From: Haliotis rufescens | Taxonomy: Eukaryota | DNA length: 64,000 nucleotides | Direction of reading: 5' to 3' | NCBI RefSeq assembly: GCF_023055435.1 | Contig: NW_025963891.1 | Span: forward strand, 2,914,001-2,978,000 | Shown: piece after piece, positions 27,201 to 36,200 of the stretch | Layout: each line of letters starts with the position of its first letter | Position numbering within the stretch: the stretch's first letter is position 1 | Made by a program: the position numbers

Positions 27201-30200
27201 GTACTGGCGAATAGGCCAGATATGTTAATCGTAAAGGGGCCAGATTTGAGACAAACATTACAGATATTATTCAAATTCAAGAACGAATTGATAGAATAAC
27301 CCTCCATAGATACCTAATCTGTTGTCTACATCTGAATACTGTCGTTTTCAGCTGAAGAAGAGTGGCACTGTACGACACGAAGGAGACTTGTGTGGCCGTG
27401 ACACAGTAGTTGGTTTGTGTTAATTGTGAGTGTTTTGAAATCTATTTCGGCAGATAATCGACACTGATGGCGTTGACGTTTTTTATATGCTATTCTTTGT
27501 AGAACCTCGTAGAGGTCAGTAGCTACTGATTCGATCACCCAGGAGGAAGTAAATATGATCATGACATGTTGATAAACTAAACATAAAAAACCATCACATA
27601 TTTGTATTTTGTGGTAATATTGTTTCAATTATACTACCTCTTTTATAATGATTGTTTCTGCGATTTATGGACTTCCACGTGAAAAGTATCTATATACTAT
27701 GTACCATGTGTAGGGAGCAGTATATTAGTGTGAGGAGAATCCACGTGTACGTTTTCAGGTTTAGTGGTATTAGAGTGCGGAGCTTGCACAACTCCGTATT
27801 CTGTATTGAGCACGAGGTATTGCTAGGATGATCTTGTAGCTGGCATGGCAATGTTGACCAAATGAGATGCAATCTCAGATGGAAACATTTCCAGCTTCAA
27901 CCAGAAGTGTGCACGTGTACTACGCCAAGACATCGTGTACGTCATCATGGCCGTGAACATTCCCGGACTCATCTCCGTCATCGTGTTCTACATCCTCATC
28001 CTCGTCATCGGCATTATCGCAGCCAGGAAAAGCAGAAGTACCAGTGCCGAAAACTCGTTCGTGGCCAATAGAAGCATAGGATTATGGCTGTCGTTCTTTA
28101 CCATTACGGGTAAGGACCAAAGCTATCTATAGTTAGGCATGTACGAATTGAGAGTCGGTACAAAGGTGTCCATGATGATCCCTTCCAAGTACAACCATTA
28201 ACCTTACAGTTACAAGTAGGTTCTGCAATGGACAGGACAGCCTCTTGTAGGTATTACTGTTATCCTGACAGTCACGTGCAGGGACTACTATTACGAGTAC
28301 CTTGACAGTCACGCGCAGAAACTACTATTACCTTGACAGTCAAGTGCAGAAACTACCATTACCCTGACAGTTACGTGCAGGAACCACTATTACCTTGACA
28401 GTTCCGTGCAGGAGCTACCATTACCCTGACAGTTACGTGCAGGAGCTACTATTACCCTGACATTCACCTGCAGGAGCTACCATTACCCTGACAGTCACGT
28501 GCAGGAACTACTATTACCTTAACAGTCACGTGCAGGGACTACTATTACCTTGACAGTCACCTGCAGAAACTACCATTACCCTGACAGTTACGTGCAGGAA
28601 CCACTATTACCTTGACAGTTACGTGCAGGAGCTACCATTACCCTGACAGTTACGTGCAGGAGCTACTATTACCCTGACATTCACCTGCAGGAGCTACCAT
28701 TACCCTGACAGTCACGTGCAGGAACTACTATTACCCTGACAGATATGCTTGACGATGATGATATGCTTTCTTTCTTTCTCGGTGCAGATGTCCATGAATT
28801 GACAAACGAACTTGATTACGATACTTGGCAAAGCATCATACTGTCTTTCTGCCACTTCATATGGAATTTAAAGAAATACCTTATGTATATCTACTAGATA
28901 CCTTACTGCTCTCAAAATGTACATTGTAAATTGTTTATTCATAGCAGTGTATAACATGATTTCTTTGTATATAGTCAAGTAATTTCATTGATGTATTGTA
29001 AATAATGTACTTGCCCATGTAAAATCTTCGGCTTCAACTCTGGAGGAAATAAAGAAATTCATTCATTCATTCATTCATTCGTGCAGGAGCTACTATTACC
29101 CTGACATTCACCTGCAGGAGCTATCATTACCCTGACAGTCACGCGCAGAAACTACTATTACCTTGACAGTCACGTGCAGAAACTACTATTACCTTGACAG
29201 TCACGTGCAGGGACTACTATTACCTTGACAGTCACGTGCAGAAACTACCATTACTCTGACAGTTACGTGCAGAAACCACTATTACCTTGACAGTTACGTG
29301 CAGGAGCTACCATTACCCTGACAGTCACGTGCAGGAGCTACCATTACCCTGACAGTTACGTGCAGGAGCTACTATTACCCTGACATTCACCTGCAGGAGC
29401 TACCATTACCCTGACAGTCACGTGCAGGAACTACTATTACCTTAACAGTCACGTGCAGGAACTACTATAACCCTGACAGTAACGTGCAGGAACTACTATT
29501 ACCCTGACTGTCAACTGCAGGAACTACTATTACGCAGACAGTCACCTGCAGGGACTACCATTACCCTGACAGTCATTTGCAGGAACCACTATTACCTTGA
29601 CAGTTACGTGCAGGAGCTACCATTACCCTGACAGTTACGTGCAGGAACTACTATAACTCTGACAGTAACGTGCAGGAACTACCATTACCCTGACTGTCAA
29701 CTGTAGGAACTACTATTACGCAGACAGTCACCTGCAGGGACTACCATTATCCTGACAGTCACGTGCAGGAACCACTATTACCTTGACAGTTACGTGCAGG
29801 AGCTCCCATTACCCTGACAGTTACGTGCAGGAGCTACTATTACCCTGAAATTCACCCGCAGGAGCTACCATTACCCTGACAGTCACGTGCAGGAACTACT
29901 ATTACCTCAACAGTCACGTGCAGGAACTACTATTACTCTGACAGACACGTGCAGGAACTACTGTTACCCTGACTGTCAACTGCAGGAACTACTATTACCC
30001 AGACAGTCACCTGCAGGCACAACTGTTACCCTGACATTCACCTGCAGGAACTACCATTACCCTGACAGTCACGTGCAGGAACTACTTTTACCCTGACAGT
30101 CACCTGCAGGAACTACTATTACCCTGACAGTCACGTGCAGGAACTACTTTCTTTTACCCTGACAGTCACGTGCAAAGTACTAATTGATCGTTATCTAAAA

Positions 30201-33200: not shown

Positions 33201-36200
33201 GGTCAATGAAACATCCTGAGAATGTCATTAATGCATTTGAAAAATATCTATATATTTATTATTGCTTTCTAATAGTCAATATGGATATCATTCTTAGGCC
33301 AGCGACCGAGAAGTGATGTGGGTCTTGAGAGTTGGCATAGTGGTGACTGGTACGTTGTCGTGCGTCCTTGCCATCCTGGTGAAGTCAGTTTATGGACTGT
33401 TCTACTTGTGTTCTGACCTAGTGTACGTCATCCTCTTCCCCCCATTCACCTGCGTTCTCTGGATCGGGTTCACCAACACCTACGGCGCGCTCACCGGCTA
33501 CGCCCTCAGCCTCTTTCTGAGAGTGGCCGCTGGGGACGCCCTGCTTGGAATCCCAGCTTTTATTCATTTCCCCTTTTACACAGAAGCTGATGGCCAATTG
33601 TTTCCTTTCAAGACCCTGGCGATGATAGTCAACTTTGTGGCCATCATATCTGTGTCAGCGTTCACAAGGCTTGTGTTCCGGCGAGGGTGGTTGTCAACCA
33701 GATGGGATGTGTTTAATGTGATGAAGAGAGAAGAGGACGCCAAGAGGGCCGAAGAGCGAGGAGAAAGTCTGATGATGAAGGAACGACAAGATGGAAACAG
33801 AGACCTGGATTACGCAGAGAATGAAAAGATGAAACTTGGGGATAACTATATGCAGTAATTAAAATCGATTACATTTTTGGTGTACACCAACATAATGTGA
33901 TTTATTATCCACAAACTAGTGTTAACTTACTCACTCACTCGCTGTTATTCATAATTACATGTAACCCTTAAGAACCCACTGACAGTTTCGGAGAGCTGTT
34001 TTCCAATCTGTATTTAACTTGATGCTGACCTCTGTACTTTGAATCTACTTGTCCCCTGATGTTTCTCTGTGTGTAGTGCGCCTCGGAGGGGGTTCTCCGA
34101 ATGCCGGCTTCTATTGCTTAAGATATGGAAGCAGTGGATTGTTATAATCTCTAAAACATAACCTTATGGGTTTGTTATATTCTTTTAAGTCCTTAACCAA
34201 AAACACCAATTCCTTTCATATACACATCAATATACATTTTTCTGCAGCAATGTAATTAGACCAATAATCTGAGAGATGCAGTCGGTATACTGAAGCTGAC
34301 TCAGATCTGAGTATTACATAGAAATGTTCTATATGAATAAACTTATTTCGTGTGGAATGGAAGAATTTGTATCTCCACGTTTATGACATTTAACCTCATA
34401 CAATACAATATATATTTTCTTGTATACTACTCAAAAGAAGATATGGAACACTGATATGTTTGCACTTAAAATAAAAAACGAACAGAAGATGAAGACATGT
34501 GTAGTAAATTCAATAATGACCGAGTATACAGTAAGAAAGAATCATGAACAATCCACTACATTTCATAACGTGATCAAGTGTTGATGTCAATAATGTCACT
34601 GGGGTCAAAATTGGAAATCCAGGCCATGAGAGAAAAGTCAGAAACGAGTGTGTCCGCCCCTAGCAGCCACACGTGCAACACAACGACGCCTCATGGATGT
34701 CACTAATGTCTGTAGTGTGTTCTGTGGGAAAGCATGCCACTCCAAACTCAGCCATTGAGCAAGCTGGCGCATATCTTGAGGTGGACGGTGGTTCTCCCTA
34801 ACACGTCTCGTTAACAGATCCCATACGTGTTCAATGGGTGCCATATGAGGAGAATATGCTGGCCATTCCATGCGAGTAACATTGTTTTGTCCCAGAAAGT
34901 CAGTGACTATGCGTGCACGATGAGGTCTAGCCTTGTCATCCTGGGAAAACCGCCTGTGGGCCTATTCGATGAAGACAAGGAATCACCATTGGTCTCAGAA
35001 TCACATCCTTGTAGCGAACAGCATTCAAATTCCCGTTGATGACGTACAGATTGGTTCTGTGATGAAATGAGAAGGCGGCCCACACCATGACACTACCACC
35101 ACCAAAGCGGTTGTGCTCACGGACGTTGACGTCAGCAAAACGTTCCCCACGCCGTATGTAGACAAGAACACGACCGTCATTATGCTGCAGTGAGAACCGA
35201 GATTCGTCAGAAAAAAGAACTGCTGACCACTGTTGTCTTTTCCACTGTCGGTGTTGCCGTGCCCATGCGTCTCTGGCTGCTCTGTGACGCGGAAGAAGAA
35301 GCGGTCTAACGACTTGACGTCGGGGCCTGATGTTTCTTTCCCTCATATGGTTTCTTATGGTTTGGTCACTGACATTTGTTCCTGTAACAGCCCTCAGTTG
35401 CCTTCGAAGATGGTTTGCTGTGACTGTTCTCCTCCTCAATGCTTCAACAACGACGCACCGGTCTTCTCTTCCTGTTGTCACACGAGGGCGTCCTGACCTT
35501 GGTCTATCACGTACTGTCTGTGTTTGTTGGAATCGCTGACGTATTCTGCAAATGACGAATGGACTAACATTTAACCTTCGAGCAGCTTCCCGCTGTGAAA
35601 CATTCTCATTTAGCCACCCAATAGCTCTGGCTCGTTCTTCAATCGTGAGGTGTCGACGTTGTGGCATGTTGAACACAGTGATGCAGTTTCATAGCGACCT
35701 GCCTTTATCAACCCAAAATTCGCACAAAAATTCCTTGTGGCTCGTGCTGTGGCTCTCATAACAGATTTTCTATTTCTTATGTGGGCATAACTGAGAATAA
35801 GTGAGCAAATGCACGATCTCCATTTTTACGGCAGCTGTGAGGAGGAGATTACAACAAAAATTTCCATGAAAATCAGTGCTGGTCAAAATGAACGTTGACG
35901 AGTCCATTATGACTCAAATTCTTTGTTCTGGTCATGAAGTCACTTGAGTAAGGGTAGTCTTCAATATCAGTACGTTAGCCGCCGATCAGGAGGCCCTTTA
36001 CCAAATTTAAAAGGAATCGAATGAACAGTGCTACAAAATATCCGTGTTCCCTAATTATTTTGACGAGCATATATATTTTCATAACACACCTGATAACTCT
36101 TCCTTGTAAATAGCACAAACTGGTCTTGAATCTTAGAATTTCATCTTCATGTTGGCTAAGAACTCGTCAGCTTTTATCTGATTCCCATCCATACGATGGT

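What the first reader, a model, noticed from the sequence alone, without database searches (positions are those of the whole stretch)
27947..33858. CHT1-like transporter with a remodelled substrate pocket
Seen: the gene is intact but reads [14 protein letters not shown] and SVYGLFYLCSDLVY. Known (recalled): human CHT1 has [14 protein letters not shown] and TVYGLWYLSSDLVY, and W62, W141, W254 and W406 line the choline site. Here the W62 equivalent is Asn and the W406 equivalent is Phe. The W141 (VFWS), W254 (LAWQ) and DWN.T glycosylation equivalents are kept. Inference: a lineage-specific paralogue likely to carry a different substrate or to have lower affinity for choline, i.e. an uncharacterised SLC5A7-derived transport function.
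Basis: partly seen in the sequence, partly recalled or inferred. Interest (0 to 1): 0.7.

Follow-up and report, generated by a model that had tools for sequence, protein, structure and literature searches.

The report
Abalone choline-transporter paralogue, altered pocket
This is an intact abalone gene from a mollusc-wide offshoot of the neuronal choline transporter family that keeps the sodium and chloride sites but has lost two tryptophans around the choline site, so it probably carries something other than choline at high affinity.

Summary
Window 27947-33858 (+) holds an intact eight-exon gene. Its exon translations match, letter for letter, the 543-aa NCBI model 'high-affinity choline transporter 1-like [Haliotis rufescens]' (P0001). 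The window is abalone, not vertebrate or human.

Aligned exon by exon to solved human CHT1, Asn (AAC) sits at W62 and Phe (TTC) at W406. Y67, Y91, W141, W254, Y403, the Na2 and Na3 residues, the chloride loop and the N-x-T sequon are kept.

It is not the CHT1 orthologue. H. rufescens has a fully canonical W62/W406 protein (P0048) that groups with other molluscan CHT1s. The window's gene lies in a 100/100-supported clade of chiton, bivalve and gastropod paralogues (62 named proteins, 26 genera). Only 3 of 62 keep W62 and 0 of 62 keep W406. Position 62 takes ten different residues there, against W in 110 of 110 canonical rows.

Published human mutants (W406F and W62F raise KM about 30-fold; W62A abolishes uptake) argue against high-affinity choline transport.

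Most likely it is a Na+/Cl--coupled symporter with changed substrate selectivity. The substrate is unknown and untested. My literature searches found no description of this subfamily. I rate it a new variant of a known kind, of moderate interest.

The parts
27947..28109 (+). Coding exon 1 (Met1 to the first base of the Ala55 codon); TM0/TM1a
   Evidence: Translation 27947-28108 equals P0001 residues 1-54. The donor is GTAAGG.
30618..30725 (+). Coding exon 2: TM1 joint loop TNIGGGY and TM2; holds Asn57 (= human W62), Tyr62 (= Y67) and Tyr84 (= Y91)
   Evidence: Piece 30620-30724 equals P0001 residues 56-90. It aligns to human CHT1 residues 62-95 at E 8e-06.
30623..30625 (+). Codon AAC = Asn57, at the position of human W62
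   Evidence: Three base differences from TGG.
31040..31195 (+). Coding exon 3 (TM3); Trp134 (31168-31170) = human W141
   Evidence: Piece 31042-31194 equals P0001 residues 92-142. It aligns one-to-one with human 99-149 at E 3.2e-13.
31489..31637 (+). Coding exon 4; Asp181 = human D188 (Na3 site)
   Evidence: Equals P0001 residues 144-192. Aligns to human 152-199 at E 8.8e-12. Passes the Pfam PF00474 cut-off.
32278..32424 (+). Coding exon 5 (a loop shorter than in human, and TM6a); Trp240 (32419-32421) = human W254; Ala239 at human P253
   Evidence: Equals P0001 residues 193-241. This exon alone had no PDB hit at E <= 0.1.
32625..32754 (+). Coding exon 6 (TM6b-TM7); Ala249 at human S263
   Evidence: Equals P0001 residues 242-284. 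Aligns to human 257-297 at E 0.019. The S263 position is Ala in 60 of 61 clade rows with a residue there.
32895..33112 (+). Coding exon 7: N-A-T sequon and TM8 with Na2 (A329, S332, S333) and Na3 (D335, S336) residues
   Evidence: Equals P0001 residues 286-357. Aligns to human 300-366 at E 3.7e-17, with A343, S346, S347, D349 and S350 all matched. Passes the PF00474 cut-off.
33298..33858 (+). Coding exon 8 with the stop codon: TM9-TM12 and the C-terminal tail; Tyr389 = Y403, Phe392 = W406, Tyr393 = Y407, Ser396 = S410
   Evidence: 100% identical to P0001 residues 358-543. Aligns to human 372-520 at E 1.2e-36.
33400..33402 (+). Codon TTC = Phe392, at the position of human W406
   Evidence: Two base differences from TGG.

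Best explanation
The gene encodes a working sodium- and chloride-coupled symporter of the SLC5A7 (CHT) family. It belongs to a divergent paralogue clade that arose by duplication of CHT1 in early molluscs and expanded further in abalone.

The transport engine is kept: the LeuT-type fold, the Na2 and Na3 sites, the chloride-binding TM1 loop, and three of the four cation-pi cage residues (Y91, W141, W254). The TM1 wall of the cage (W62) is now a small polar Asn, and the TM10 lid tryptophan (W406) is Phe.

The protein therefore most likely no longer serves as the high-affinity neuronal choline carrier; P0048 fills that role. Instead it probably takes up a different small organic cation or zwitterion, still of the methylammonium type. 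Betaine-like osmolytes or nutrients are my best guess for the compound class.

Shown: gene structure, identity to the public model, residue states, clade membership, conservation pattern, fold.
Inferred: that it transports at all, its ion coupling, and its changed substrate.
Guessed: the identity of the substrate.
For: 1. The gene is intact. Eight exons with GT/AG borders give a 543-aa product identical to the NCBI model.

2. It has the CHT fold. The AlphaFold model has mean pLDDT 90.3 and pTM 0.88, with the TM1 helix broken at residues 58-59. The best PDB matches are the nine human CHT1 structures (query-normalised TM-score 0.77-0.87, 45-47% identity), against SGLT2 at 0.72 and 20%.

3. The ion sites are kept. 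D188, A343, S346, S347, D349, S350, the I-G-G-G-Y loop and W141 all align. Across the 62-row clade, D188 is present in 62 of 62 rows and S346/S347/D349/S350 in 60 of 62 (the other 2 rows are gaps).

4. The cage is changed. Asn stands at W62 and Phe at W406. In human CHT1, W62A abolishes uptake. W62F raises KM from 12.2 to 402 uM and W406F to 358 uM (PMC13220886, Table 2 passage). Each Ala mutant of the six aromatics loses transport (PMC11589582, section 7).

5. It is not the orthologue. P0048 of H. rufescens is W62/W406 and sits in a 7-row canonical clade (100/98). The window's gene sits in a 46-row molluscan clade (100/100).

6. The conservation pattern fits a specificity-determining site.
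- Position 62 is W in 110 of 110 canonical rows.
- In the 62 clade rows it is M27, N16, L6, V3, W3, G2, I2, H1, Q1, F1.
- At least 18 changes at this position are needed on the 85-row tree.
- W141 stays at 62 of 62 and W254 at 59 of 62.
- Abalone keeps paralogues with N/F, N/Y, V/F and W/F side by side.

7. Constraint looks like that on the true CHT1. P0001 and its H. asinina counterpart are 89.0% identical, against 89.6% for the canonical pair from the same two species.
Against: - Nothing here measures function. There is no uptake assay, no expression data and no dN/dS; DNA of relatives was not available in any open collection.
- Three of the four cation-pi residues and the chloride co-factor site remain, which still suits choline. 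The protein could simply be a low-affinity choline carrier.
- The human mutant data are for Phe and Ala, not Asn, and come from a human background. The 26 other shifted columns could compensate.
- The 89.0% versus 89.6% comparison assumes that P0001 and P0003 are orthologues.
- The substrate class I name is a guess from pocket chemistry and mollusc physiology (recalled), not a result.
Confidence: 0.45

Rival explanations
1. Low-affinity, high-capacity choline carrier. The protein still moves choline with Na+ and Cl-, but with a KM of hundreds of micromolar. It would serve bulk choline uptake for phospholipid or betaine synthesis in non-neural tissues.
For: Y91, W141, W254 and the chloride loop are kept. 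Human W62F and W406F still transport choline, with KM about 400 and 358 uM and roughly half the Vmax (PMC13220886 passage).
Against: Position 62 takes ten different residues, and several different 62/406 combinations are kept within one genus. That is hard to explain if all of them merely carry choline weakly. Human W62A, a non-aromatic replacement like Asn, abolished uptake.
Confidence: 0.3
2. Functionally normal high-affinity choline transporter. Other changes in the pocket compensate for the loss of W62 and W406.
For: 26 of 148 otherwise conserved columns have shifted along with W62, so compensation is conceivable. The window's protein keeps Y407, unlike most of the clade (only 6 of 62 keep it).
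Against: The cage is W at position 62 in 110 of 110 canonical animal rows and is reported as conserved even in a bacterial CHT (W99, W445; PMC13220886 passage). A canonical orthologue already exists in the same species.
Confidence: 0.12
3. No transport function: a decaying duplicate, or a protein turned into a sensor or regulatory partner.
For: It is one of several close copies; P0005 and P0006 are 86% identical and the search table gives all three the same longest-contig length. Transposon ORFs crowd the locus.
Against: The reading frame and all splice sites are intact. The ion-site residues are invariant across a clade that spans chitons to snails. Divergence between abalone species equals that of the canonical CHT1.
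Confidence: 0.08
4. Artefact: the substitutions are sequencing, assembly or annotation errors.
For: None found.
Against: The two codons differ from TGG at 3 and 2 positions. The N/F pair is present in all 6 full-length proteins of the Haliotis clade, from four species, and N62 is also seen in Batillaria, Nucella, Gigantopelta and Physella.
Confidence: 0.01

Closest known systems
Human CHT1 / SLC5A7 (PDB 8j74, 9bfi, 9bfj, 9bim, 8zqq and others)
   Same: Same fold (query-normalised TM-score 0.77-0.87, 45-47% identity). Same Na2 residues (A343, S346, S347), Na3 residues (D188, D349, S350) and chloride loop with W141. Y67, Y91, W254, Y403, Y407 and S410 are kept, as is the N-x-T sequon.
   Different: W62 is Asn, W406 is Phe, P253 is Ala and S263 is Ala. 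The loop before TM6 is shorter and the C-terminal tail is shorter and unrelated (543 vs 580 aa). It is not an orthologue.
Canonical molluscan CHT1, e.g. H. rufescens P0048 (570 aa) and its H. asinina counterpart P0050
   Same: Same species and same family. All ion sites are shared.
   Different: P0048 has W62 and W406 and groups with Octopus, Lottia, Patella, Aplysia and Littorina CHT1 (100/98). It is only 47.8% identical to the window's protein.
Bacterial CHT (PDB 9rws/9rwt; PMC13220886)
   Same: SLC5A7-type fold and sequence. The window's exons 2, 3, 4, 6, 7 and 8 each match it.
   Different: The paper's passages report the bacterial protein as keeping the full tryptophan cage (W99, Y126, W176, W298, W445). 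The abalone protein does not.
Other animal CHT-like proteins without W62: octopus/argonaut P0022/P0031 (I62/F406, and Y91 is Ile), sea urchin Diadema P0216 (V62/Y406), sea bass 'CHT1-like' P0042 (F62)
   Same: Loss of the TM1 tryptophan in a CHT-family paralogue.
   Different: These do not join the molluscan clade under the mixture model. They sit on long branches, so they look like separate events or are of uncertain placement.

Membership tests
Sodium:solute symporter family (SLC5 / Pfam PF00474) | Match to the family profile above the curated cut-off | tested here: met
   Exon 4 alone scores 25.5 bits and exon 7 alone 23.9 bits, against a cut-off of 22.8. Exons 3 and 8 alone gave no Pfam match. 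The search table lists PF00474 for the identical record P0001.
Sodium:solute symporter family (SLC5 / Pfam PF00474) | LeuT-type fold with a broken TM1 | tested here: met
   Model pLDDT 90.3 with a helix break at residues 58-59. Foldseek probability is 1.00 to CHT1, SGLT1/2, SiaT, NIS and vSGLT.
CHT / SLC5A7 subfamily (by descent) | Closest solved and named relatives are CHT1, and it groups inside animal CHT sequences | tested here: met
   The clade profile A1 hits 8j74_A at E 1.3e-192, against vSGLT at 1.3e-21. Rooted on a cnidarian CHT, the clade is nested in the 76-row protostome CHT group (96/94).
CHT1 orthologue (the high-affinity neuronal choline transporter) | One-to-one orthology with CHT1 | tested here: not met
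   H. rufescens P0048 takes the orthologue's place (7-row clade, 100/98). The window's gene is in a separate 46-row clade (100/100).
CHT1 orthologue (the high-affinity neuronal choline transporter) | Complete aromatic enclosure W62, Y67, Y91, W141, W254, W406 (PMC11589582, section 7) | tested here: not met
   4 of 6 are kept. W62 is Asn and W406 is Phe.
CHT1 orthologue (the high-affinity neuronal choline transporter) | Na2 site (A60, V63, A343 backbone; S346, S347) and Na3 site (D188, D349, S350) | tested here: met
   All side-chain ligands are identical. V63 is Ile, which is a backbone ligand.
CHT1 orthologue (the high-affinity neuronal choline transporter) | Chloride site: joint loop V-G-G-G-Y and the W141 indole | tested here: met
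   I-G-G-G-Y and W134 are present.
CHT1 orthologue (the high-affinity neuronal choline transporter) | Micromolar, hemicholinium-3-sensitive, Na+/Cl--dependent choline uptake | not testable with these tools
   Needs an expression and uptake assay.

The most novel reading that the evidence does not exclude
Molluscs hold an undescribed subfamily of CHT-derived Na+/Cl--coupled transporters. In it, the TM1 cage position (human W62) acts as a specificity dial: ten residue kinds and at least 18 changes, while the rest of the cage and the ion sites stay fixed. The many paralogues in one genome, this abalone gene among them, would then carry different methylammonium or zwitterionic solutes (osmolytes, nutrients, perhaps signalling amines) rather than choline. 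That would make it a natural mutagenesis series for substrate selection in SLC5A7.
Probability: 0.35. Interest if true: 0.7.

Novelty: new variant of a known kind. Interest (0 to 1): 0.5.

Why it matters
The CHT1 structural papers present the tryptophan cage as conserved from invertebrates to mammals (PMC11589582) and in a bacterial homologue (PMC13220886). Against that, a well-supported molluscan clade of at least 62 proteins keeps the ion-coupling machinery but replaces W62 in 59 of 62 members and W406 in all 62.

If these proteins transport other solutes, three things follow:
- They define a new functional branch of SLC5.
- They offer ready-made natural variants for working out how CHT selects choline.
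- The automatic name 'high-affinity choline transporter 1-like' misleads on many mollusc genes. That matters when such genes are used as cholinergic markers or read in stress and salinity transcriptomes of farmed abalone, oysters and mussels.

Tried and rejected
- **Vertebrate origin.** I first took the locus for a fish gene. The exon-8 search showed it is abalone. It is not human.
- **Exon 5 alone.** It found no PDB match at E <= 0.1. W254 was anchored through exon 6 and a profile alignment. My first residue table pointed one residue too early for W254; this was corrected.
- **A second CHT-like copy in the window.** None. tblastn of P0001 against all 64 kb finds only this gene.
- **Octopus (I62) and sea-urchin (V62) proteins as members of the same clade.** FastTree joined them (98). 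The site-heterogeneous model did not. I treat them as separate or unresolved.
- **An ancient, pre-bilaterian origin of the clade**, as the midpoint root suggested. With a cnidarian outgroup and the mixture model the clade nests among protostome CHTs. The root itself is not inferred.
- **Literature.** Five searches found no description of this subfamily and no abalone paper naming the transporter. One search was too broad to be informative (2,040 papers; I saw only 15 listed titles and abstract openings). One search failed on a word limit and was corrected.
- **Not run.** dN/dS (no DNA of relatives in any open collection), pocket geometry or docking (model coordinates are not exposed), the search of protein representatives, the protein-atlas search and complex prediction (none would have changed the verdict).
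- **Full-length steps.** The exons were never joined. Full-length work used the public record P0001.
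Full report
**What is there.**
Stop-to-stop frames on the + strand between 27866 and 33858 hold eight pieces of a CHT1-like protein. With GT/AG borders they resolve into eight coding exons:

| Exon | Window coordinates |
|---|---|
| 1 | 27947-28109 |
| 2 | 30618-30725 |
| 3 | 31040-31195 |
| 4 | 31489-31637 |
| 5 | 32278-32424 |
| 6 | 32625-32754 |
| 7 | 32895-33112 |
| 8 | 33298-33858 (with stop) |

I translated and searched every exon on its own and did not join them. 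The search with exon 8 alone (186 aa) returned a 543-aa public record, P0001, named 'high-affinity choline transporter 1-like [Haliotis rufescens]', at 100% identity. All 8 exon pieces are exact substrings of P0001 in the right order, and the 4 split codons give the 4 residues between them. Full-length analyses below use that public record. The window is therefore red abalone DNA, not vertebrate and not human. A tblastn of P0001 against the whole window finds no second copy.

**The observation.**
Exon-wise alignment to solved human CHT1 chains (8j74_A, 9bfi_A) gave the following.

| Exon | E-value | Human residues aligned | Key positions |
|---|---|---|---|
| 2 | 8e-06 | 62-95 | Asn57 on W62; Y67 and Y91 kept |
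| 8 | 1.2e-36 | 372-520 | Phe392 on W406; Y403, Y407, S410 kept |
| 3 | 3.2e-13 | 99-149, one-to-one | W141 kept |
| 4 | 8.8e-12 | 152-199 | D188 kept |
| 7 | 3.7e-17 | 300-366 | A343, S346, S347, D349, S350 and the N-x-T sequon kept |
| 6 | 0.019 | 257-297 | places the W of LAWQ at W254 |
| 5 | no hit at E <= 0.1 | - | - |

A profile of the clade aligned to 8j74_A (E 1.3e-192) confirms the W254 mapping. The Asn codon is AAC and the Phe codon TTC, which are 3 and 2 differences from TGG.

**What those residues do.**
From PMC11589582 I read passages and section 7:
- Choline is surrounded by W62, Y67, Y91, W141, W254 and W406.
- W62, Y91, W141 and W254 form the cation-pi cage.
- The W62 backbone carbonyl binds the choline hydroxyl.
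- Chloride sits on the 63-VGGGY-67 loop and the W141 indole.
- Na2 uses A60, V63, A343, S346 and S347. Na3 uses D188, D349 and S350.
- Each Ala mutant of the aromatics loses transport.
- The authors state that these aromatics are highly conserved from invertebrates to mammals. Their Supplementary Fig. S4 could not be seen, so I do not know which invertebrates they compared.

From PMC13220886 I read passages including Table 2:

| Human CHT1 variant | KM for choline (uM) |
|---|---|
| Wild type | 12.2 |
| W62F | 402 |
| W141F | 271 |
| W406F | 358 |
| Y91F | 22 |

Ala at W62, Y91, W141, W254 or W406 abolishes uptake. The paper gives bacterial equivalents in brackets beside the human residues (W99, Y126, W176, W298, W445).

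**Relatives.**
Three homologue searches gave 185 proteins that carry a source name. Hits without a name were not used.

At position 62 the 185 rows read W 117, M 28, N 16, L 6, I 5, V 4, G 2, F 2, Q 1, H 1, gap 3. W141 is kept in 183 of 185 and W254 in 177 of 185.

Trees:
- **FastTree, 180 rows** (5 dropped for length under 500 or over 700 aa). It shows a 62-row molluscan clade with support 100.
- **Careful IQ-TREE run, 85 rows** (LG+C20 PMSF, 1000 ultrafast bootstraps plus SH-aLRT). I chose the rows to cover every subclade. The search was finished and is shown.
  - The clade (46 rows: one chiton, bivalves, gastropods) has support 100/100 on a stem of 0.67.
  - Rooted on a cnidarian CHT, it nests in a 76-row protostome group (96/94).
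  - It is weakly paired (84/83) with a gastropod W62 clade.
  - The window's protein sits in a six-row Haliotis clade (100/100), all N62/F406.
  - H. rufescens P0048 (W62/W406) sits with Octopus, Patella, Lottia, Aplysia and Littorina CHT1 (100/98).

So the window's gene is a paralogue and P0048 is the CHT1 orthologue. All named members of the clade are molluscs, from 26 genera.

Octopus I62 and sea-urchin V62 proteins joined the clade in FastTree but not under the mixture model. I leave them out.

**Pattern of change.**
I compared the 62 clade rows with 110 canonical rows; 8 long or partial rows were left out of both sets.

| Human position | Divergent clade (62 rows) | Canonical (110 rows) |
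|---|---|---|
| W62 | W in 3 | W in 110 |
| W406 | W in 0 (F 36, Y 22, L 2, V 1, gap 1) | W in 93 |
| W141 | 62 | 108 |
| W254 | 59 | 108 |
| Y91 | 55 | 108 |
| Y403 | 61 | 109 |
| D188 | 62 | 110 |
| S346, S347, D349, S350 | 60 each (2 gaps) | 107-109 each |

- 148 of 543 columns are at least 95% conserved in canonical rows. In 26 of these the clade has the canonical residue in under half of its rows.
- Examples: S263 to Ala (60 of 61), L115 to Phe, F102 to Tyr, A134 to Gln/Glu/His, V155 to Ile, M358 to Val.
- Among the 148 columns, position 62 has the fourth highest entropy in the clade.
- On the 85-row tree, position 62 needs at least 18 changes, and N against the rest needs 5.
- Haliotis alone keeps N/F, N/Y (two groups), V/F and W/F members of the clade. 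It also keeps a W/F and a W/W member outside it.

**Fold.**
AlphaFold2 on P0001 with the 85-row alignment gives mean pLDDT 90.3 and pTM 0.88. Only the tail (517-543) is disordered, and TM1 is broken at residues 58-59. Foldseek against the PDB ranks nine human CHT1 structures first (query-normalised TM-score 0.77-0.87, 45-47% identity), then SGLT2 (0.72, 20%).

**Constraint.**
P0001 is 89.0% identical to its H. asinina counterpart P0003. The canonical pair P0048/P0050 from the same two species is 89.6% identical, and the tree paths are 0.16 for both pairs. If P0001 and P0003 are orthologues, the paralogue is as constrained as the true CHT1. dN/dS could not be computed because no DNA of relatives was available.

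**Reading.**
- *Shown:* an intact CHT-family gene with the ion-coupling residues in place, and a cage lacking W62 and W406. It belongs to an old, conserved and diversified molluscan clade, alongside a canonical orthologue in the same species.
- *Inferred:* it is a working Na+/Cl--coupled symporter that does not bind choline with high affinity.
- *Choice between rivals:* I favour a changed substrate (0.45) over a low-affinity choline carrier (0.30). Position 62 behaves like a specificity site that has diversified among co-existing paralogues.
- *Guess only:* the compound class (betaine-like methylammonium solutes).
- *Other rivals:* normal choline transport through compensation (0.12), loss of function (0.08), artefact (0.01).

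**Novelty.**
The gene is already predicted and auto-named in public records. Five literature searches found no paper describing the subfamily or its altered cage. Subscription journals and supplements were not searchable. I file it as a new variant of a known kind.

**Surroundings.**
- Intron 1 holds a 31-nt satellite (28255-30174).
- Two reverse-transcriptase ORFs lie upstream (2969-4675 and 19919-21949, Pfam RVT_1).
- A Tc3-type transposase ORF lies 1.1 kb downstream on the minus strand (34936-35688).
- No other host gene was evident among ORFs of 110 aa or more.

**Unchecked.**
- Accession numbers and copy counts (one search was switched off).
- Expression.
- Synteny. The shared longest-contig lengths only suggest that several family members share a chromosome.
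- Anything in the closed contig collections.

Noticed in passing
window 28255-30174 (intron 1): A 31-nt tandem satellite fills about 1.9 kb of intron 1. Tandem Repeats Finder reports it as 30.4 copies at period 62, with 74-84% matches across the rows. It produces the many 30-aa periodic frames seen.
   Followed up: partly
window 34936-35688 (-): A 250-aa open frame with Tc3-type transposase helix-turn-helix domains (PF01498, E 7.7e-11) lies 1.1 kb downstream of the gene's stop. It is a Tc1/mariner-like element.
   Followed up: partly
window 2969-4675 (+) and 19919-21949 (+): Two long open frames (568 and 676 aa) with reverse-transcriptase domains (PF00078, E 1.7e-17 and 1.2e-35). They are non-LTR retroelement remnants upstream of the gene.
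   Followed up: partly
window 1576-1989 and 5470-7156, both strands: Long frames with periodic peptide repeats on both strands point to further tandem-repeat arrays. They were not analysed.
   Followed up: no
window 1430-1565: A run of 136 N. Left as it is.
   Followed up: no
proteins P0187, P0189, P0191 (Haliotis rubra and H. cracherodii): Three Haliotis proteins nested inside the divergent clade (100/100 as a group) carry W at position 62 with F at 406. This is either a reversion to Trp or retention.
   Followed up: partly
protein P0043 (Lymnaea stagnalis, 904 aa): This top hit of the clade profile is far longer than its relatives. It showed N at position 62 in one alignment and M in another, as if two tandem copies were fused in one gene model. 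It was dropped from the trees.
   Followed up: no
proteins P0022/P0031 (Octopus, Argonauta), P0216 (Diadema), P0042 (Dicentrarchus): CHT-family paralogues outside the molluscan clade have also lost W62 (I, V and F respectively). The octopus ones have also lost Y91 (Ile) and sit on a branch of length 2.3. They may be independent remodelling events.
   Followed up: partly
tables (longest_contig column): Several Haliotis family members list the same longest-contig length: P0001, P0005 and P0006 in H. rufescens; P0004, P0045, P0174, P0176 and P0191 in H. cracherodii; P0003, P0047, P0050 and P0180 in H. asinina. This suggests, but does not prove, that canonical and divergent genes share a chromosome.
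   Followed up: no
protein P0067 (Sinonovacula rivularis): A canonical-type (W62/W406) bivalve CHT is named 'AAT9' by its depositors, that is, filed as an amino-acid transporter. It shows how loosely this family is named in molluscs.
   Followed up: no
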